Positions 18,779-35,970 of a stretch of DNA of 35,970 nt are shown here, one piece after another. A program made the translations under genes and the position numbers. The stretch spans positions 1 to 35,970 of the forward strand of contig JAAWCR010000111.1 in assembly GCA_022793355.1 (NCBI GenBank), given 5' to 3'. Source of the stretch: Lawsonibacter sp. Lineage in GTDB: Bacteria > Bacillota > Clostridia > Oscillospirales > Oscillospiraceae. The notes under the pieces were generated by a model that made no database searches, had not been told where the DNA came from, and saw nothing but the letters and a program-made list of their open reading frames with translations. Each line of letters opens with the position of its first letter. Position 1 is the stretch's first letter.

Positions 18779-19666
18779 TTGGAAGTGTTGGAATTGCTGT
18801 CGGTCTATGAAGATTTTTTAAAAATTGAAAAACAGGCCTCAGCAAACACGGTCAGTTCCTATCTCCGCGACGTTCACCAGTTTGCCGAGGCTATGGACGG
18901 GAGAGGGGTTACCCTCACTCAGGTCATGACCCGGGATGTGGAGGAGTATGCCAACTCCCTGATTAAGCGGGGCAAGTCCCCGGCCACAGTGACCCGGTCG
19001 GTGGCCTCTATCAAATCGCTCTACGCCTGCCTGATCAACAAGGGCTACATGGATCAGAACCCGGCTAAGGGGGTGTCTCCGGCTAAGGTGGAGCGCAAGC
19101 TGCCCCAGGTGCTCACCGGGAAGGAGGTGGAGCTGTTTCTGGAGCAGCCTGAGTGTACCGACCTGAAGGGATACCGGGACCGGGCCATGCTGGAGCTGCT
19201 CTATGCCACCGGCATTCGGGTTAGCGAGCTTATTGAGCTGGATGTGGACGACCTGAATCTGCCTGGCGGCGTGCTCAAGTGCTATAGCAAAGGGAAGGAG
19301 CGCGTCATTCCCCTTTACCCTGCGGCCATTCGGGCACTGAGTGAGTACATAACCAATATCCGGCCCCAGCTGGTGGACTCGATCGATGAGACGGCGCTCT
19401 TTGTCAACATGAACGGCGAGCGCATGAGCCGTCAGGGCTTCTGGAAGCTGATCAAATATTATCAGGAGAAGGCGGGCATCCAAAAGGACATCACTCCCCA
19501 TACCCTTCGCCACTCCTTTGCTGCCCATCTGCTGGAAAATGGAGCGGATTTGCACTCCATTCAGGAAATGCTGGGCCATGCGGACATCTCCTCCACGCAG
19601 ATATACTCTAAGCTTATCAACCAGAAACTCAAGGACGTCTATAAAAAGGCTCACCCCAGGGCCTGA
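18779..19666 (+). CDS. xerD: Tyrosine recombinase XerD/RipX
   Basis: SANTVSSYLRD, RDRAMLELLYATGIRVSE, TPHTLRHSFAAHLLENGAD and MLGHADISSTQIY. Confidence 0.93.
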   Translation: MEVLELLSVYEDFLKIEKQASANTVSSYLRDVHQFAEAMDGRGVTLTQVMTRDVEEYANSLIKRGKSPATVTRSVASIKSLYACLINKGYMDQNPAKGVSPAKVERKLPQVLTGKEVELFLEQPECTDLKGYRDRAMLELLYATGIRVSELIELDVDDLNLPGGVLKCYSKGKERVIPLYPAAIRALSEYITNIRPQLVDSIDETALFVNMNGERMSRQGFWKLIKYYQEKAGIQKDITPHTLRHSFAAHLLENGADLHSIQEMLGHADISSTQIYSKLINQKLKDVYKKAHPRA

Positions 19667-28761: not shown

Positions 28762-29757
28762 TCACTGAGAATCCGGCTCTTTTTCCGGCTTTTTTTTCTG
28801 GCGCACACGGCTTAGCGGATTGGCCCGGGCGGCAGTACGCAAATCCTCGTTGTCCACATGGGTGTAAATTTGGGTGGTGTTCAGGTGGTCGTGGCCCAGC
28901 ACCTCCTGAAGGGTGCGTACATCCACACCGTTCTGGAGCATCAGGGTGGCGGCGGTGTGTCGCAGCTTGTGGGAGGAGTATTGGCTGCTGTCCAGTCCGG
29001 CTGCGGCCAGATGCTTTTTGACCAGCTTGTGGACCGCAGCCGTAGAGATACGCCTCCGGTTCTGAAGGGTAACAAAGAGGGCGTTTTGGTCTACCAGCGT
29101 CAAGGAATCCCGTTCAGTGAGCCAGTTCTCCAGCGCCCGCTGACAGGCGTCGTTGAGATACAGCATTCGCTCCTTGTTACCCTTGCCCAGCACTCGGAGC
29201 TGATCGCCCCGAACATCTGTTTTGTTCAACCCTACCAGTTCAGAAATACGTAGACCGCAATTGAGGAACAGTGCCAGAATGCAATAGTCCCGGCTGAAGT
29301 TTTTACCGTCAACACTGTCCAAAAGCTCCAAACTTTCTTCTAAATTCAGATATTTGGGTAAGGATTTTTTCAATCTGGGCGAATCCAAGTCCTGGACCGG
29401 GTTGACTTCAAGTAGCTTGGCCTTATTGGTAAGATACTTGTAGAACGACCGGATAGTGGCAACTTTGCGGGCTCGCGAGGTGTTGTTCAGCCCACGGTCT
29501 CGAGACAGATAGTTCATATAGGAATAGATATCCGTCAGTGTGATATTTCGGGCCAGATCCAAGTCAACGTCGGCGATGGAGATATCATCCAGCGGAACAT
29601 CCTTGGAAACCAACTGTTTACTCTGCTTGAGGTAGCGGAAAAAATTCCGGAGGTCTAAATAGTATTCGTCAACCGTCCGCCGTGAGTGACCTTGGATGGT
29701 CTCATGGTAAACAAGGAAATCCCGAAGGATAGGCGGTGCTTCCGTACGGTAGTCCAT
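28762..29757 (-). CDS. Chromosomal Xer-family tyrosine recombinase (clostridial XerC/XerS-like)
   Basis: LRDFLVYHETIQGHS..TVDEYYLDLR, RDYCILALFLNCGLRISEL, GKGNKER, HKLRHTAAT and LGH...NTTQIY. Confidence 0.9.
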   Translation of the reverse strand: MDYRTEAPPILRDFLVYHETIQGHSRRTVDEYYLDLRNFFRYLKQSKQLVSKDVPLDDISIADVDLDLARNITLTDIYSYMNYLSRDRGLNNTSRARKVATIRSFYKYLTNKAKLLEVNPVQDLDSPRLKKSLPKYLNLEESLELLDSVDGKNFSRDYCILALFLNCGLRISELVGLNKTDVRGDQLRVLGKGNKERMLYLNDACQRALENWLTERDSLTLVDQNALFVTLQNRRRISTAAVHKLVKKHLAAAGLDSSQYSSHKLRHTAATLMLQNGVDVRTLQEVLGHDHLNTTQIYTHVDNEDLRTAARANPLSRVRQKKKPEKEPDSQ

Positions 29758-29808
29758 ATAAGGTAAATGGCTTGTCAGACGCAAAATGAGTGGTTCTACC
29801 TCCACTCA

Positions 29809-29836
29809 GGTCAACAAAATTTTTATTTTGTTGACC
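29809..29836. other. Palindromic 11-6-11 dif-like recombination site (candidate attL)
   Basis: GGTCAACAAAA-TTTTTA-TTTTGTTGACC has perfect inverted arms (extendable with TCA/TGA) and lies ~50 bp upstream of the xer gene. Confidence 0.7.
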
Positions 29837-29948
29837 TGACATAATGCGCTAATCTGAGTGCCATCGTTCCTCCCCTCTGCTTTCGCAGTAATTTGGAACT
29901 AAGTATAGCACGCTTTTCCCGTCAGGTCAACAAAACATGAAGTTACCG
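29826..29948. repeat. Direct repeat copy 1 (~123 bp) containing a sigma-A promoter facing xer
   Basis: Aligns by hand to 35708-35829 at 93/123 identity. Minus-strand TTGACC (29925-29930)-N17-TATACT (29902-29907). Confidence 0.85.
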
Positions 29949-30797
29949 TTACCGACTTCGACACCGTTTTACCTTCCGAATTAGTTTCCGCCAAAACCTC
30001 ACCAGGATGAATGGCCGCCGTGGAGCTGCCAGGACGGCTAGTTCCCGCTGGCGGACCCGCAGCACCGAGATCATATCCAGCACCAGGGCTTTTTTCAGCT
30101 CTTGGTCATCCTCGGCGGCGACGCCGTTCCCCGGGGCCCCACCGCTTGCGCGGTTCCCCCCGGCACAGACATCGCCGCCTGCGGTGACCATATCTGAAAA
30201 CAGCTTGTAGCTATCATAGACCTCAGCGTAACGTTTCCGGTACGGGAAAACTGTCTGCCCCAGCTTCAGGCGATTCCCACCGTACCAGTATTGAATGGCA
30301 ATAAACCAAGTACGCCCCAATGTGAGTAAGGACAGCATGCCACCTCCAAAGCCGTAATTGTTCAGCTTGCGGTGTTTTATCTCCTCCTCCACCAGTGATC
30401 TAATCTGCCGGTCCAGCATCCGGTCGGACTGCGTGATTAAGATCACGTTGAAGCCCAGCTTGCGGTGCTGGGCAAAGAAAGTTACCCAGGCGTTGCGGTC
30501 CTTCCGTCCGAAGTCCCGGCAGTTAAAGATGATCTGGCACTCGTCTATCACCACCAGCGTCTGGCCTTCTTTTCCGATCTTATGCCGGTCCAGTGCATAG
30601 GCCACCAGACGCTCCGCCGTCAGCTCCGAGTTGTCCCAATACTCCACATGGGCTTTCAGCTTCTTTCCGACAAAACCTTCATTGACCGGGAAATTGCAGA
30701 TCAGTCCCCTATCCCGCTTCATCCACCGGACGATATCTTTTGCCGCATGAAAACTCTTACCGCTGCCGGGAGTACCGGTATACAGTTGGATACTCAT
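29949..30797 (-). CDS. Zot/pI-like morphogenesis ATPase
   Basis: IQLYTGTPGSGKSFHA (Walker A), LVVIDECQ (Walker B) and QHRKLGFNVILITQ..LDRQIR. Confidence 0.92.
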   Translation of the reverse strand: MSIQLYTGTPGSGKSFHAAKDIVRWMKRDRGLICNFPVNEGFVGKKLKAHVEYWDNSELTAERLVAYALDRHKIGKEGQTLVVIDECQIIFNCRDFGRKDRNAWVTFFAQHRKLGFNVILITQSDRMLDRQIRSLVEEEIKHRKLNNYGFGGGMLSLLTLGRTWFIAIQYWYGGNRLKLGQTVFPYRKRYAEVYDSYKLFSDMVTAGGDVCAGGNRASGGAPGNGVAAEDDQELKKALVLDMISVLRVRQRELAVLAAPRRPFILVRFWRKLIRKVKRCRSR

Positions 30798-31036
30798 TCT
30801 ATCACCTTCACCCAGCGGAACACGATCTGGTACACATAATAGACCGCCACGCAGGACAGCCAAGTTTCCAGGATACCCACAAAGGTGTTGATAGGGATAA
30901 ACCAGTTCACCATTTGCAGCCACTCGTAAAACTCCGAGCTGGCCATGTCGTCCAGGATCACGAAGGGACTGGTGGGAAACAGCTCCACCACGCCTACCGC
31001 GAAGGACACCAGGGCGTCAGACAGCACGTCCCACAT
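30794..31036 (-). CDS. pVI-like minor virion protein
   Basis: Hydrophobic 80 aa with FPTSPF..VNWFIP..RWVKVIE; ATGA-coupled to Zot. Confidence 0.75.
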   Translation of the reverse strand: MWDVLSDALVSFAVGVVELFPTSPFVILDDMASSEFYEWLQMVNWFIPINTFVGILETWLSCVAVYYVYQIVFRWVKVIE

Positions 31037-31054
31037 GTAAAGCCCCTCCCCTGT

Positions 31055-32386
31055 TCACGCCGTCCATATCAGGCGTTTGGTGGCCCCGACCAGCATCAGG
31101 CAGAAGCCTATGGTGCTTGTCCACCGGCTGATCTGGCCGATGATTGCGTACTCAGCAAAATCCAACACAATGGTTGTATCACCCTGCCACTCCCCTACTC
31201 TGTGTTCTATCGGCTGCATAAAGTCCACCTTGAACCGTGGAGCTTTCGCCGGTGCGGCCAGGAGCTGTACAGCCCTGAAAAAGTCCCAGGGGATGGAGAA
31301 AGGGAAACGGCTTATCAGCGCCTGTCCCAGAGCGGGTAAGCCCAGGTTGTCTACATCGGTTATCTCCCCCGCTGGCGGGTCTACCACAGCCTCTCCCGCA
31401 ACTTCCATGGTTGACGTCAGCTCACCGGCCAGCACATCCTCCAGCACCCCTTGAAGAACCAGGTCAAGGTCCATCGTCGCCGCTGCGCCTACGTCCAGCG
31501 CTATCCCCTGTTCTGCTGCTATGCCATCTGGAATATAGGACATGGAAGGAGCACGGTCAATGGAAAGGGATTCATCAGATGAGACTACAGCACCAAAATT
31601 AAAGTCACGCAGAGAAACAGCAGAACAATACTTGAAAACCCCATTAGAATCCCAAAACAGAAAAAGAGTATCATCATAAAAAGAAAAGCAAAAATTAGTG
31701 GCCCCCCAAAATTTATTACCGGTAATTTTAGTGCCCTGAGGATTAAAAAAAGCAACCCAATAGGAAGAATCACCTGCTGGGTCATTAGCAAAATAATAAC
31801 CACTAGAGAAAACGATTGGAGAATCAATAGGAAAATGAAAAATTGTTCCTAGAGAAACAACAGTAGAATTATTGCCATTATAATTCATTGAAGAAAGGTA
31901 CAATTTGCTACCATCTTTCAATGTAATATAATCATCAGCATCATAATAAACTCGATTCTCCCCCGCCTGCGCCGCATACTTCCCCACAACCCACTGTGCA
32001 AAGGAAACAAATTCCTCGGTAAGGGACCGCCCCAGGAGGAGCTTTCCCGCCATAACTGTGAGGTCCCAAACGCCGCCCAGCCAGTCCTGGATGGAGATAC
32101 CGCCAAGTTCCGTGTCAAGGAATTCCTGAAGCAGCCGCTGCACAGAGCTGACCAGGGCATCCTTGTCCATCCCCTTTGTGATAAACGGCAGGCCGCAGGC
32201 TCCCAGGTAAGCCGCCGCCACCGAGGCCACAGCGGTCATGGACAGCTCCGCCACCAGGGCCTCCGCCCTTTGCTGGGGGAGCATCAAGCCCAGCACCAGC
32301 GAGAAGCACACCAGCCAGCAGCCCAGCCGCATGAGCAGCTTGTCCCGCCGGGCGGCGAGGAACCGTATTACCAGATTCATTTCCAT
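31055..32386 (-). CDS. pIII-like attachment/minor coat protein
   Basis: Signal peptide (..RAEA), C-terminal RFPFSIPWD motif and TM anchor; lies between the coat gene and pVI. Confidence 0.78.
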   Translation of the reverse strand: MEMNLVIRFLAARRDKLLMRLGCWLVCFSLVLGLMLPQQRAEALVAELSMTAVASVAAAYLGACGLPFITKGMDKDALVSSVQRLLQEFLDTELGGISIQDWLGGVWDLTVMAGKLLLGRSLTEEFVSFAQWVVGKYAAQAGENRVYYDADDYITLKDGSKLYLSSMNYNGNNSTVVSLGTIFHFPIDSPIVFSSGYYFANDPAGDSSYWVAFFNPQGTKITGNKFWGATNFCFSFYDDTLFLFWDSNGVFKYCSAVSLRDFNFGAVVSSDESLSIDRAPSMSYIPDGIAAEQGIALDVGAAATMDLDLVLQGVLEDVLAGELTSTMEVAGEAVVDPPAGEITDVDNLGLPALGQALISRFPFSIPWDFFRAVQLLAAPAKAPRFKVDFMQPIEHRVGEWQGDTTIVLDFAEYAIIGQISRWTSTIGFCLMLVGATKRLIWTA

Positions 32387-32400
32387 ACCTCCCTATGAAG

Positions 32401-32424
32401 TGAGCCCCGGAGAACCGGGGCTCA
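32401..32424 (-). terminator. Hairpin after the major coat gene
   Basis: TGAGCCCCGG-AGAA-CCGGGGCTCA between the coat gene and pIII, as in Ff phages. Confidence 0.65.
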
Positions 32425-32435
32425 TTTGCGCTGTG

Positions 32436-32717
32436 TTACTGACCCATGGATTTAAACCAGCTCATAGCCTTCCGGGACAGCCAGATCACGCCGGCCACAC
32501 CGACGGCAATGGGCACGATCACGGCAATCATGCTCATGGCGTCTGACGCCATGCTCTGGAAACCGCTCTGGAACGCCGAGATCACCGTGGCGGACGTGCC
32601 AGAAGCACCAGACGACGCACCCTCAGCCGCAAAAGCGGAGATGCACATAACCGACAAGATCATAGACACTCCCAACAGCACAGCCAGCCGTTTCTTGATA
32701 GACTTCATCCTTTTCAC
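32436..32717 (-). CDS. Major coat protein (pVIII-like)
   Basis: Signal peptide ending SAFA|AEG, amphipathic segment, one TM (IAVIVPIAVGVAGVIWL) and basic C-terminus SRKAMSWFKSMGQ. Confidence 0.85.
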   Translation of the reverse strand: MKRMKSIKKRLAVLLGVSMILSVMCISAFAAEGASSGASGTSATVISAFQSGFQSMASDAMSMIAVIVPIAVGVAGVIWLSRKAMSWFKSMGQ

Positions 32718-32878
32718 CTCCCCATGATTTTAATCAATGCCTTAAAGCAGCCGACCAAAAGACCAGCCGCCAGGACAACGAAACAGGCGGATGTCATGCC
32801 TATCACCAGGACCTCGGGCACGGCATCCAGAATATCCAGGCTGATTGTGTACAGCTCTGCTACTTCCAAAAACTCCAT
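32714..32878 (-). CDS. Small TM protein (pVII/pIX-like)
   Basis: 54 aa with an acidic N-terminus, a single TM and basic end; overlaps the coat gene start. Confidence 0.65.
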   Translation of the reverse strand: MEFLEVAELYTISLDILDAVPEVLVIGMTSACFVVLAAGLLVGCFKALIKIMGR

Positions 32879-32879
32879 A

Positions 32880-33107
32880 CTACACCTGCCATATCCGGGA
32901 GAACATAAAACCAATTGCGCAGCCTAACACTACGCCAATGAGTAGCACAACAGCCAGAAACACTAGGCTGACGTCAGCATGAAGCTGTTCTAATCCGCAG
33001 TTGGCTTTGTCCAAGGACTGCTGCATAACTTCCAAGGCCTCCAACACCGGTGTCAGGTCTGTTGGTGATACCAGGGTTTCATAGATCACGCTGCCGCTCT
33101 CCTCCAT
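32880..33107 (-). CDS. Small TM protein (pVII/pIX-like)
   Basis: AAGGAGG RBS; 75 aa with a coiled segment and C-terminal TM. Confidence 0.65.
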   Translation of the reverse strand: MEESGSVIYETLVSPTDLTPVLEALEVMQQSLDKANCGLEQLHADVSLVFLAVVLLIGVVLGCAIGFMFSRIWQV

Positions 33108-33975
33108 GGGCCTCTCCTCCTTCCAGCCACCCACTGATGGTTGTTTGCTCTATCTCTGCATTGGACAACAGTACCGGGATGTCCTCCGGATACTCCAACG
33201 GGGGCAGCTCACCGTCTACCGGGATGTATTCCATCCAAAAGGACCAATCTACATCCCGTACCCAGCCGGTGGAACAGAATGTGCCATCATGCTCCAAATA
33301 GGCATCCAGGCTTGCATAGGATTGATACACATATCCCATGGGCATGGCACGGGCCAGGCCGATGGAGCAGCGGTACATATGTACCCCATAGTCCGAAACA
33401 CACCGGGCCAGGTCCTTCGACACATACTTGGTGATATACCCCGCTGCAAGCTCCGGGTCCTTGATATAGGCCAGGGAGCAGAAACCGAATTTTTTCTGAT
33501 ACTCCGGCCAATTCAGATAACCTTTGGCTACCAGGTCTTGGGGTTCCAGGCCAGGGATGAACAGGCGCAGCCGGTCTTGCGGGATACCCTTGACAAAGCC
33601 GTGGATATGCCACGCTCCATCCTCATGGAGCTCCGGGACAAACAGGTATTGGAGGTTGCAACCGTATTTCTTCCGGTAATCCCGCAGCCATTGGGTGAAG
33701 GACTTATAAAATTCCTTCAGGTGGTAACGATTATATTTAGCTGGGTCTATGGTGCCAGTAAAGAAAAAGTCCCAATCATTGCAGAAAGCCACCTGGAAGA
33801 TCACCGACCGGGCCCGGCAGATCGCCTGGGAAAGTTTTTCCTCCGGAGTGCCCTCCCCTTCCTCACGTTTGGGTGGCAGATGGGGAAACAGCGCCCGCTT
33901 GAACCGGATAAGCTCATACACGCCATCCCTGTAAAACTTGACCGAATATCTTGGAGCCAGTACGCCAGACATCAT
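33079..33975 (-). CDS. HUH rolling-circle replication initiator
   Basis: Motif I FFTGT, motif II ELHEDGAWHIHG, motif III YITKYVSK. Confidence 0.9.
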   Translation of the reverse strand: MMSGVLAPRYSVKFYRDGVYELIRFKRALFPHLPPKREEGEGTPEEKLSQAICRARSVIFQVAFCNDWDFFFTGTIDPAKYNRYHLKEFYKSFTQWLRDYRKKYGCNLQYLFVPELHEDGAWHIHGFVKGIPQDRLRLFIPGLEPQDLVAKGYLNWPEYQKKFGFCSLAYIKDPELAAGYITKYVSKDLARCVSDYGVHMYRCSIGLARAMPMGYVYQSYASLDAYLEHDGTFCSTGWVRDVDWSFWMEYIPVDGELPPLEYPEDIPVLLSNAEIEQTTISGWLEGGEAHGGERQRDL

Positions 33976-34159: not shown

Positions 34160-34468
34160 TTACGGTTTCTTCCGCTGGAACATGTACTTGGGGACCTCTA
34201 CCCCCTGCTCCCGGCACAGGTCGATCAGGAGGTTGTTCAGATAAGACTCATCTGCAAAGAGATTTTCGGCTTTTATACGGATTGCCTTCTCCGCCTCCAG
34301 CTCGCTTTCCAGCAGCCGGACACGGTTTTTTAGGACCTGAACCTCCACCGTATCGCAGACGCTGACCGAGAGCTCCAACCGCCCCTCCCCTACCCTCTCC
34401 AACACTTTGGACAGAGCCGGGACCAGGGACGTAAACTCAGACCGGGACAATGTCTGCGACACGTCCAT
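34160..34468 (-). CDS. Phage hypothetical coiled-coil protein
   Basis: ORF between SSB and Rep; heptad pattern LKNRVRLLESELEAEK. The start is uncertain. Confidence 0.55.
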   Translation of the reverse strand: MDVSQTLSRSEFTSLVPALSKVLERVGEGRLELSVSVCDTVEVQVLKNRVRLLESELEAEKAIRIKAENLFADESYLNNLLIDLCREQGVEVPKYMFQRKKP

Positions 34469-34673
34469 ACTTGTTGTACCGAATCTCGCACTGGTTGCCA
34501 ATCTCAGGCATAAAGGTCAAATTCATAAACCGGTTGGAGCTTATGAAAACGCGATCTGTTGCCTCGCCGTCAACCTCTGGGTCCTCATACGTGAAGTACA
34601 GATTCATTCCATTGACCTGCGCACCATCGGAGCCCTTGAAATCTACGTTCTTTGTTCCTACAAGTGTGTACAT
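34437..34673 (-). CDS. pV-like single-stranded DNA-binding protein
   Basis: AAAGGAG RBS; 78-aa beta-rich MYTLVGTKNVDFKGSDG..NG..LY..YNKYGRV; size and position match. Confidence 0.65.
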   Translation of the reverse strand: MYTLVGTKNVDFKGSDGAQVNGMNLYFTYEDPEVDGEATDRVFISSNRFMNLTFMPEIGNQCEIRYNKYGRVADIVPV

Positions 34674-34692
34674 GAATACCGCTCCTTTCTTT

Positions 34693-35094: not shown

Positions 35095-35313
35095 ATGAAC
35101 ATTGGTGATAGGCTAAAAGACACGAGGATCGACCACGATCATGAACAGAAAGACACCGCAGAAATATTACAAATATCGGAAAAGCAAGTTATGCGCTACG
35201 AGAAGGACCGCCAAGAAATGGGCATAAGAAAACTAAGAGATTTTTGTCTTTACTACCAAGTTTCCGCCGACTACATTCTAGGCCTCCCCCGTGGCCTGGA
35301 CTGGCCACGGTGA
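35095..35313 (+). CDS. XRE-family HTH prophage repressor
   Basis: RLKDTRID...Q..AEILQIS..QVMRYE...L.DFCLYYQVSADYILG; divergent from the phage operon. Confidence 0.88.
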   Translation: MNIGDRLKDTRIDHDHEQKDTAEILQISEKQVMRYEKDRQEMGIRKLRDFCLYYQVSADYILGLPRGLDWPR

Positions 35314-35599: not shown

Positions 35600-35718
35600 C
35601 GGGGAGCGATCACCGCTCCCCGCTTCTCTTTCAAAAGTTATAGAAAAGGCATCGTGTGCGCCAGCACACGCAACAAAACCTAAAAATATTGGTACAATAT
35701 TTTTAGGTTTTGTTGACC
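35600..35718. repeat. Three consecutive hairpins ending in the candidate attR
   Basis: CGGGGAGCG/CGCTCCCCG (35600-35622), CGTGTGC/GCACACG (35653-35670) and a perfect 21-bp inverted repeat 35671-35691/35695-35715 that overlaps the arm TTTTGTTGACC (35708-35718). Confidence 0.8.
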
Positions 35719-35829
35719 TAGTAGCGTACACTATTCTGCGGAAAGCCTGTCCTCCTTCCTGCTTTCGCAGTAGTTTTGAACCAGTATAGCACGGTTTCCC
35801 CGGCAGGTCAACAAAACATGATTTTACCG
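35708..35829. repeat. Direct repeat copy 2 (probable original host xer promoter)
   Basis: Minus-strand TTGACC (35806-35811)-N17-TATACT (35783-35788); homologous to 29826-29948. Confidence 0.85.
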
Positions 35830-35970
35830 CACGGAAATCAATTTTGCAAAATTGGATTCAAAGAGATAAAATAGGAAATATGAGAAAGAACATAGTAGAA
35901 TATTTTGATGAAGTAGAAACAAGGCGGGAATACAAGGGATATTTTTGTAGTATTCCAGAAGCAATCAGCA
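35830..35970 (+). mobile_element. Left end of a probable ISAs1-family IS with partial transposase (ATG 35880)
   Basis: MRKNIVEYFDEVETRREYKGYFCSIPEAIS.. resembles the N-terminus of clostridial ISAs1-type transposases; candidate terminal repeat CACGGAAATCAATTTTGC at 35830; AT-rich; truncated by the window end. Confidence 0.55.

What the first reader, a model, noticed from the sequence alone, without database searches (positions are those of the whole stretch)
35671..35718. Hairpin-type attachment site suggesting CTXphi-like single-stranded integration in a Gram-positive host
Seen: a perfect 21-bp inverted repeat, CAACAAAA-CCTAAA-AATATTG gta CAATATT-TTTAGG-TTTTGTTG(ACC), whose right arm runs into the same TTTTGTTGACC arm as the left site. 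The two 6-bp spacers (TTTTTA and TTTAGG) share only the first 3 bases. Established: CTXphi attP is a folded ssDNA stem, and only one strand pair is exchanged, so full spacer identity is not needed. Inference: empty host site = GGTCAACAAAA-TTTAGG-TTTTGTTGACC. The phage attP would be a hairpin pairing CCTAAA opposite TTTTTA (3 mismatches), with CCTAAA complementary to the host spacer. Caveat: the loop-side arm is only 7 bp.
Basis: inference. Interest (0 to 1): 0.8.

Follow-up and report, generated by a model that had tools for sequence, protein, structure and literature searches.

The report
Filamentous prophage hairpin at chromosomal dif
A perfect DNA hairpin marks the right end of a 5.9-kb filamentous prophage that sits in a conserved palindrome beside a host Xer recombinase gene in a Gram-positive gut bacterium; the palindrome is likely the chromosome-separation (dif) site, and the phage likely enters it as folded single-stranded DNA, as cholera phage CTX does, while carrying a copy of the promoter that its insertion would otherwise cut off.

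Summary
The 21-bp hairpin is real, recurs in independent assemblies, and is conserved with one compensatory pair in a second prophage. It is the right junction of an integrase-less inovirus (Zot/pI, rolling-circle Rep) inserted at GGTCAACAAAA-TTTTTA-TTTTGTTGACC. That site lies next to a host Xer gene, at 176-183° from dnaA in two complete relatives, where GC skew flips. The left site is the intact host site, the whole hairpin is phage-borne, and the crossover lies right of the spacer, on the phage coding strand. The broader idea holds for the family: sister phages and satellites at this site have CTX-like forked attP stems, and a circle/prophage pair shows the same polarity. In 17 of 19 elements the base next to the crossover matches the host. 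This hairpin and its G097 twin are the two exceptions (host spacer plus GG), so their own route is unsettled. The phage carries a copy of the xer promoter that insertion displaces. The scan earlier noted this dif module and a dsDNA-type inovirus in it on other DNA. I found no paper on it.

The parts
28762..29757 (-). Host Xer-family tyrosine recombinase (331 aa); starts 51 bp from the palindromic site
   Evidence: PF00589 and PF02899 over cut-off; XerC, XerD and XerS NCBIfam models hit, all below cut-off; conserved with the site in relatives without phage
29809..29836 (.). attL = intact host site GGTCAACAAAA-TTTTTA-TTTTGTTGACC (11-6-11 perfect palindrome; inferred dif)
   Evidence: Same site in relatives; 183° and 176° from dnaA in complete G014 and G009, with the GC-skew switch within 10 kb and 3 kb
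29837..29948 (-). Phage-borne copy of the host xer upstream region, with promoter-like TTGACC-17-TG-TATACT (29930-29902) whose -35 lies in an extra half-site (29925-29935)
   Evidence: 77.5% over 138 bp to 35694-35829; promoter scan; aligns with flanks of phage-free relatives
29949..30797 (-). Zot/pI morphogenesis ATPase (inovirus hallmark)
   Evidence: PF05707 E=3e-20; PHROG 1675 'protein I of M13' E=7.5e-17
30794..33113 (-). Small hydrophobic ORFs and a 443-aa ORF in the order expected for coat, pIII-like and pVI-like genes
   Evidence: ORF list; no Pfam hits; role inferred from position and size only
33079..33975 (-). Rolling-circle replication initiator
   Evidence: PF23343 E=2.6e-11; PHROG 3419
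34437..34676 (-). 79-aa ORF, likely single-strand DNA binding protein
   Evidence: Position and size only; weak unnamed PHROG hit
35095..35313 (+). HTH repressor, divergent from the phage operon
   Evidence: PHROG 8 E=1.6e-11; Pfam HTH hits below cut-off
35653..35670 (.). Small G+C hairpin abutting the att hairpin
   Evidence: G097 has CGTGGGC-GCTA-GCCCACG, with a compensatory change
35671..35715 (.). Perfect 21-bp hairpin = attR; phage-derived up to 35707; contains the host spacer TTTTTA (35700-35705) plus GG (35706-35707)
   Evidence: G097 copy with one compensatory pair
35708..35829 (-). Host right arm and original xer upstream region (promoter-like TTGACC-17-TATACT at 35811-35783; half-site 35806-35816)
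   Evidence: 79% to the flank of phage-free G021
35830..35970 (+). Start of a multi-copy element (insertion-sequence-like) that breaks the contig
   Evidence: Depth jump and many different left neighbours at 35829/35830; no Pfam hit

Best explanation
The hairpin is the phage-derived right junction of an integrase-less filamentous prophage inserted into a host palindrome that is likely the dif site of the adjacent single Xer recombinase, and it likely works as a folded single-stranded attachment site. Shown: the left junction is the unchanged host site, and the phage spacer and hairpin end up on the right, so the crossover lies between the spacer and the right arm (or inside the shared 12 bp). 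Inferred steps: (1) the incoming coding (+) strand, which is the window's minus strand, folds into the stem; (2) the host Xer synapses it with dif and exchanges only that strand at the right edge of the spacer; (3) the CC/GG pair and the stunted loop-side arm block the second exchange, and replication resolves the junction; (4) dif is regenerated, and the phage's copy of the xer promoter replaces the one pushed 5.9 kb away. This hairpin has no base pairing at the 6-bp edge, so I infer that cleavage falls 1-2 nt inside the A-tract (as in the wider centres reported for XerS and XerH) and that the swapped strands pair through the conserved TAAAAA/TTTTTA with a 2-nt bulge.
For: Empty spacer TTTTTA in 20 of 21 xer-adjacent sites and in 67 of 75 listed genus sites, with no TTTAGG. 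Terminus position and skew switch in 2 complete genomes. Both arms change together in at least nine palindrome variants, as expected for one recombinase. G097 repeats the layout with a compensatory pair. The phage clade is mobile: G097 and L188 have 99.6% identical xer but 84.5% identical Zot. Sister elements at the same site have forked stems with 9-12-nt versus 6-7-nt centres (L110, L111, L114, L115, L189, L192, G114, G022, G072); CTX has 12 versus 5-7 (PMC4246890). Circular L211 versus integrated L210 (93-97% identical) shows the phage spacer at attR and CTTTTA, absent from the circle's att, at attL. 17 of 19 elements match the host at the first base next to the right arm and 16 of 19 have no mismatch in three bases; G114 has host spacer TTTTCA and attR ending TTTCA. 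In the elements checked, Rep and Zot lie on the strand that must be exchanged. XerS prefers bottom-strand exchange; difSL has an 11-bp and difH a 6-10-bp centre (PMC5357621).
Against: The window and G097 are the only 2 of 19 elements with three mismatches at the crossover edge, and CTX integration needs pairing there. In relatives the CC/GG pair marks the side that is not exchanged. The stem is perfect with a 3-nt loop and only a 5-7-bp inner arm, unlike CTX. No exact circle joint and no empty site were seen for this strain in the runs laid (4 over the whole prophage; 4 over the right end; 6 distinct runs; contigs only), and depth over the phage equals host depth. One contig of a related phage (X15 record 22) joins right-end to left-end sequence apparently without the hairpin. 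The cleavage position, the enzyme and the promoter activity are all untested. A second Xer gene (XerD over cut-off, 18779-19666) could take part.
Confidence: 0.55

Rival explanations
1. The site began as a full-identity attP (degenerate left arm + TTTTTA + right arm, as in L143, L112, L237, L164) used as double-stranded DNA or as a bulged hairpin. The GG was added later by template-switch palindrome correction, which perfected the hairpin and locked the prophage in.
For: Removing GG gives 6/6 identity to the host spacer; 4 of 19 elements have that full-identity form; no excision product seen; X15 record 22 lacks the hairpin.
Against: The GG is present in two hosts that are only 83% identical at xer, together with a compensatory pair, and the clade re-integrates within a species. 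A one-off lock would need long co-inheritance of an intact prophage.
Confidence: 0.22
2. Integration and excision go by homologous recombination in the ~120-bp promoter copy. The hairpin then serves another single-strand function (packaging signal, minus-strand origin, or a Xer decoy).
For: Any crossover right of the GG gives the observed junctions. Flank repeats of 108-362 bp at 91-99% exist in L110, L114, L115 and L143. L188's phage-left flank starts with 43 nt identical to the empty flank of G016, suggesting exchange inside the repeat.
Against: In the window the two copies are 77% identical, with no perfect run over 18 bp. G097's two flanks share only 14 bp in the BLAST test. The hairpin is built from the Xer arm and the host spacer.
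Confidence: 0.12
3. One reading: host spacer TTTAGG, exchange at the left (loop-side) edge through TTT, attP with three mismatches.
For: TTT is shared at the left edge in the 6-bp register (pattern xxxWWW).
Against: No TTTAGG in any listed host site. A left-edge exchange would leave the host spacer at attR and would need the non-coding strand as substrate.
Confidence: 0.03
4. The repeat is a bidirectional transcription terminator or a chance palindrome at the prophage edge.
For: Many AACAAAACC...GGTTTTGTT hits elsewhere in the family are G+C-rich terminator-like stems; 6 perfect repeats of >=21 bp occur in this genome.
Against: The stem is A+T-rich and is not called by the terminator scan. It sits exactly on the junction and contains the host spacer and Xer arm.
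Confidence: 0.05

Closest known systems
CTXphi-type IMEX of Vibrio cholerae (attP(+); PMC4246890, PMC5357621, passages read)
   Same: Integrase-less filamentous phage at a dif-like site; coding strand folds into a Xer substrate; one strand exchange leaves an intact dif; sister elements have the same long/short bulged centre and two sites 50-110 nt apart.
   Different: Gram-positive host; perfectly palindromic site, probably one recombinase instead of XerC+XerD; this hairpin is perfect, has a 3-nt loop, stays whole at attR (so it could refold) and lacks pairing at the 6-bp edge.
XerS/difSL of Streptococcus and Lactococcus (PMC1914069, PMC2965235, passages read)
   Same: Site directly upstream of a single tyrosine recombinase gene, at the terminus, with AAAA...TTTT inner arms; site between promoter and ORF.
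   Different: The protein scores below the XerS cut-off (143 versus 267 bits); the arms are perfect 11-bp repeats; mobile elements do insert here. PMC1914069 proposed that this layout blocks such insertions by cutting the gene from its promoter; this phage brings a promoter copy.
VGJphi/TLCphi-type IMEX (double-stranded attP; PMC4246890)
   Same: Sister phages L143, L112, L237 and L164 have full spacer identity and a degenerate arm, like TLCphi; the window site equals that form plus GG.
   Different: The window's attP has no identity at the exchanged edge and carries a conserved hairpin.
LME-1 at dif/XerL of Legionella (PMC9765430, passages read)
   Same: An IMEX that uses a single-recombinase system with long perfect arms; the dif was found through the element.
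   Different: Gram-negative host; xerL lies far from dif; 'hairpin' does not occur in that paper's main text.
Inoviruses of gut Clostridia (Enterocloster, PMC10061712; pig viromes, PMC9723715; passages read)
   Same: Zot/pI-bearing 5-8-kb prophages flanked by direct repeats in Gram-positive gut hosts.
   Different: Those papers name no Xer/dif mechanism in the text searched.

Membership tests
Inovirus (filamentous phage) | pI/Zot ATPase in a 4-12-kb genome with Rep and small structural genes | tested here: met
   5,882 bp between the right arms
Inovirus (filamentous phage) | Filamentous particles with circular ssDNA | not testable with these tools
   Circular contigs exist for relatives (22 of the fetched loci), none for this phage
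IMEX | No own integrase; inserted at the host dif and regenerates it | tested here: met
   The only recombinase is the host gene, conserved in phage-free relatives; attL equals the host site
IMEX | Integration needs the host Xer | not testable with these tools
   Needs genetics or in vitro assay
CTXphi-type IMEX | attP formed by folding of the coding (+) strand | tested here: inconclusive
   The stem forms in silico on the coding strand and covaries; use as a substrate not shown
CTXphi-type IMEX | Two inverted sites about 90 nt apart with 12-nt and 5-7-nt centres | tested here: not met
   Window: perfect stem, 3-nt loop. Met by sister elements
CTXphi-type IMEX | Base pairing with dif next to the cleaved arm, none on the other side | tested here: not met
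   Window and G097 read xxxWWW from the crossover edge in the 6-bp register; 16 of the other 17 meet it
CTXphi-type IMEX | XerC catalyses, XerD is structural | not testable with these tools
   Symmetric arms suggest one enzyme; a xerD gene exists
dif site | About 28 bp, two 11-bp arms, non-coding, single copy | tested here: met
   81 of 112 genus genomes match, 77 of them once; reversed-pattern control 0
dif site | Opposite the origin at the GC-skew switch | tested here: met
   183° (G014) and 176° (G009) with skew switch; 172° in G042 (7 contigs); 143° in G135, skew not tested there
dif site | Resolves chromosome dimers, FtsK-dependent | not testable with these tools
   GGGNAGGG counts were too few to be clear
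XerS/difSL | Site immediately upstream of the recombinase gene | tested here: met
   51 bp in the window; same linkage in relatives
XerS/difSL | Protein is an XerS orthologue | tested here: not met
   NF003462 142.8 bits, cut-off 267; no tree built
VGJphi/TLCphi-type IMEX | Single double-stranded attP with spacer identity at the exchanged edge | tested here: not met
   met only if GG is removed
Intrinsic terminator | G+C-rich stem followed by a T run | tested here: not met
   Not called

The most novel reading that the evidence does not exclude
Gut Clostridia host a whole guild of filamentous phages and Rep satellites that hijack a one-enzyme Xer/dif module through folded single-stranded attP sites and defeat its built-in guard (dif placed between xer and its promoter) by carrying a spare promoter. 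This phage is a derived form whose perfect hairpin recombines with no pairing at the canonical edge and stays whole after insertion, so it could refold and excise like an integron cassette.
Probability: 0.3. Interest if true: 0.85.

Novelty: new variant of a known kind. Interest (0 to 1): 0.62.

Why it matters
Folded-strand integration at dif is known from Vibrio and enterobacterial phages that use XerC and XerD. Here it appears in Gram-positive gut bacteria with what looks like a single recombinase, which asks how one enzyme performs only one exchange. The locus also gives a direct test of a published hypothesis (PMC1914069): placing dif between the promoter and the recombinase gene should keep mobile elements out, and this phage carries the counter-measure. 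The site and its natural attP variants are a ready set of substrates for mapping cleavage, and a candidate neutral integration tool for Oscillospiraceae.

Tried and rejected
IMG/VR gave nothing close with the single Zot protein (4 pattern hits, none confirmed). Two DNA pattern scans of viral contigs (71 and 52 loci) looked like chance matches in large unrelated contigs and were not analysed further. A family search with the hairpin region found only G097 among 400 genomes, plus one weak 28-bp hit. Read laying showed no empty site and no exact circle joint for this strain; contigs cannot show absence. X8 record 23 runs from the host site into a G019-like flank; I did not use it, because a shared 31-mer can join species. 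I considered the 15-bp repeat between 29826 and 29935 as a CTX-like attP2 and rejected it: phage-free G021 has the same 15-bp repeat, the arm overlaps the -35 box, and its outer arm does not pair. I considered the right flank as a second tandem prophage; it matches phage-free host flanks and stops at a multi-copy element, so this is unlikely but cannot be excluded on 120 bp. A 2-nt-shifted register with full identity would put GG at attL, which is not seen. KOPS counts were uninformative. The own-genome search for the terminal ORF found only itself. G113's prophage is a deletion remnant without attR. The contigs of L188, L113 and G102 end before attR.

Full report
Observation. The inverted repeat is as described: arms 35671-35691 and 35695-35715, perfect, 3-nt loop, with folding z = -8.4. 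The 11-mer TTTTGTTGACC occurs five times in the window, all at the two ends of one segment. Contigs from five public runs carry the same letters across the hairpin (X6, X8, X10, X13; X12). X15 has a near-identical copy with two differences outside the stem.

The element. Between 29837 and 35707 lie, on the minus strand, a Zot/pI ATPase, small structural-type ORFs, a rolling-circle Rep and an SSB-sized ORF, with an HTH gene on the plus strand. This is an inovirus with no integrase. The tyrosine recombinase to its left (28762-29757) is a host gene, found in 30 of 41 genomes by DNA search, some of them only as weak hits to other recombinases. It scores below the XerC, XerD and XerS cut-offs, while a separate gene at 18779-19666 passes the XerD cut-off. 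Named records of close relatives are Oscillospiraceae, and the runs that hold the DNA are mouse gut metagenomes.

The host site. Of 29 relatives' loci returned, 21 contain the palindrome beside the gene: 20 with spacer TTTTTA and one with TTTTCA. The other 8 are weak recombinase matches with no arm. A pattern scan matched 81 of 112 genus genomes (85 sites), with no hit for the reversed control. Of the 75 sites listed, 67 read TTTTTA, 2 TCTTTA, 2 TTTTCA and 4 are second sites with other spacers; 10 sites were not listed. In complete genomes G014 and G009 the site lies 183° and 176° from dnaA, and the local cumulative GC skew peaks 10 kb and 3 kb from it. G042 gives 172° (not closed) and G135 143°. 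In the window the cumulative skew peaks at 29793, though the phage genes contribute to the fall. Across hosts both arms change together (GGTCAAC, AGTCAAC, GGTAAAC, ACTCAAC, ATTGAAC, ATTAAAC, ACGCAAC, ATTATAC, TTTATAC), as expected if one protein binds both. I infer a single-recombinase dif module laid out like difSL-xerS.

Polarity of insertion. attL keeps the host spacer and attR holds phage sequence up to the right arm, so the crossover is right of the spacer. By tyrosine recombinase chemistry (PMC4246890, passages), that is an exchange of the bottom strand, which is the phage coding strand. That this is the packaged (+) strand is recalled knowledge of inoviruses. Direct support comes from a relative: circular contig L211 carries two inverted sites with 10-nt and 6-nt centres, and the 93-97% identical prophage in L210 has CTTTTA at attL and the phage's 10-nt spacer at its right site. 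Circles L209 and L214 carry the same two-site structure.

The family. I tallied 19 elements for which both junctions were in fetched DNA. They were picked from 239 Zot loci and from pattern hits; several are kin, so they are not independent, and five came from a pattern that fixes the CC start but not the end. Four have full spacer identity and no stem seen (double-stranded type). Thirteen have 9-12-nt spacers: 12 of them have no mismatch in the three bases next to the right arm (wobble allowed) and all 13 match at the first base. In G114 the host spacer is TTTTCA and attR ends in TTTCA. For L110, L114, L115 and G114 the whole forked stem lies at attR. For G022, G072, L210, L207, L217, L224 and L118 the partner site lies 48-110 nt inside the left end (folded in silico for G022, G072 and L211). 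G381 and G384 gave no clear stem. CTX has 12-nt and 5-7-nt centres 90 nt apart. So the CTX-like mode is well supported for the family. One circle, L209, has a spacer ending AC and an unknown host, which may be another exception.

This hairpin. The window and G097 are the two outliers. G097 has the same stem with one compensatory pair, and a covarying small G+C hairpin next to it. Their attR is the host spacer plus GG, giving three mismatches at the 6-bp edge. The clade moves between hosts (xer 99.6% versus Zot 84.5% for G097 and L188), so the form is probably transmissible. My best reading is cleavage slightly inside the A-tract, as the 11-bp centre of difSL and the 6-10-bp centre of difH allow (PMC5357621, passages), with slipped pairing through TAAAAA. 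Against it: in many relatives CC/GG marks the side that is not exchanged; no circle of this phage was seen; and one contig of a related phage in run X15 (depth 7.8) runs from right-end sequence into sequence matching 29845-29874 at 26 of 30 bases, apparently without the hairpin. That shows an end-to-end join, but may be a polymerase skip or a deleted variant. A late GG gain that locks the prophage is the main rival.

The spare promoter. The site lies between xer and a promoter-like TTGACC-17-TG-TATACT whose -35 sits in an extra half-site, which suggests autoregulation. Phage-free G021, G012, G005 and G002 have this flank. The prophage's left end carries a 77% identical copy, so xer keeps an upstream promoter. 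Of 13 lysogens compared, 6 repeat 45 bp or more of flank at both ends, and 7 share 20 bp or less. G097 is among the 7, but its left end has the promoter copy while its right flank lacks the boxes. PMC1914069 (passages) speculated that difSL sits between xerS and its promoter, and that this might prevent insertions at the site. Activity of the copy is untested.

What is in print. Ten searches found no paper on dif-integrating inoviruses in Clostridia or on this site. I read passages only, of PMC10061712 (plus a term search of 12 of its 14 supplementary files, where one Enterocloster phage table lists an 'integrase' that may be the host Xer; untested), PMC2965235, PMC5357621, PMC3025954, PMC9765430, PMC6813254, PMC9723715, PMC13371034, PMC1914069, 10.1101/2021.09.09.459576 (its supplements are closed), PMC13342612, PMC8138268, PMC4246890 and PMC7062461. 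The dif table in the supplement of PMC3025954 was not checked and may list clostridial sites. Subscription papers (the primary CTX papers, Leroux 2011, IMEX reviews) are not in the library. Earlier notes of this scan describe the same dif module, a double-stranded-type inovirus and a microvirus in it on other genomes; I tested the module independently here.

Verdict. A real, phage-borne attachment hairpin in a probable single-Xer dif. It works like CTX at family level but fails two defining CTX features itself. New variant of a known kind; interest 0.62.

Noticed in passing
L399 (G022) and L524 (G072); halves in G086, G100, G102: 2.5-2.8-kb satellites at the same site: Rep plus a 160-180-aa protein resembling a tyrosine recombinase catalytic domain, with a forked attP split by the crossover and a promoter-like stretch after it.
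   Followed up: partly
L523:1989-9445 (G114): A 7.4-kb inovirus-like element with an unrelated Rep uses the same site; its attR ends in TTTCA, matching that host's variant spacer TTTTCA.
   Followed up: partly
L393, G042:C2:221770-221880: Three different dif-like palindromes within 110 bp, with arms of three host types and no xer hit in 20 kb; possibly a multi-host attachment array.
   Followed up: no
run X15 record 22 on window 35633-35676: A related phage contig joins right-end to left-end sequence apparently without hairpin and arm.
   Followed up: partly
window 18779-19666: A second Xer gene (XerD over cut-off) about 10 kb from the site; its target is unknown.
   Followed up: no
L152, L158, L166, L173, L181: Zot phages next to an ACGCAACAAAA palindrome with the xer gene pointing the other way relative to the phage; no exact second arm copy found.
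   Followed up: no
L188 left flank versus G016 (L107): The first 43 nt after the site are identical to another species' empty flank, suggesting the phage captures host promoter DNA on excision.
   Followed up: partly
L134: A Zot prophage at 2.75 Mb of a 5.63-Mb complete Lacrimispora chromosome, about halfway along the record; no site of this pattern was detected by my scan.
   Followed up: no
window 35830-35970: Multi-copy element inserted just beyond the displaced host promoter; ends the contig.
   Followed up: partly
G005:C90:18118, G113:C1:144782, G014:C1:2235129 and 2427865: Extra dif-like palindromes away from the xer gene, with other spacers.
   Followed up: no
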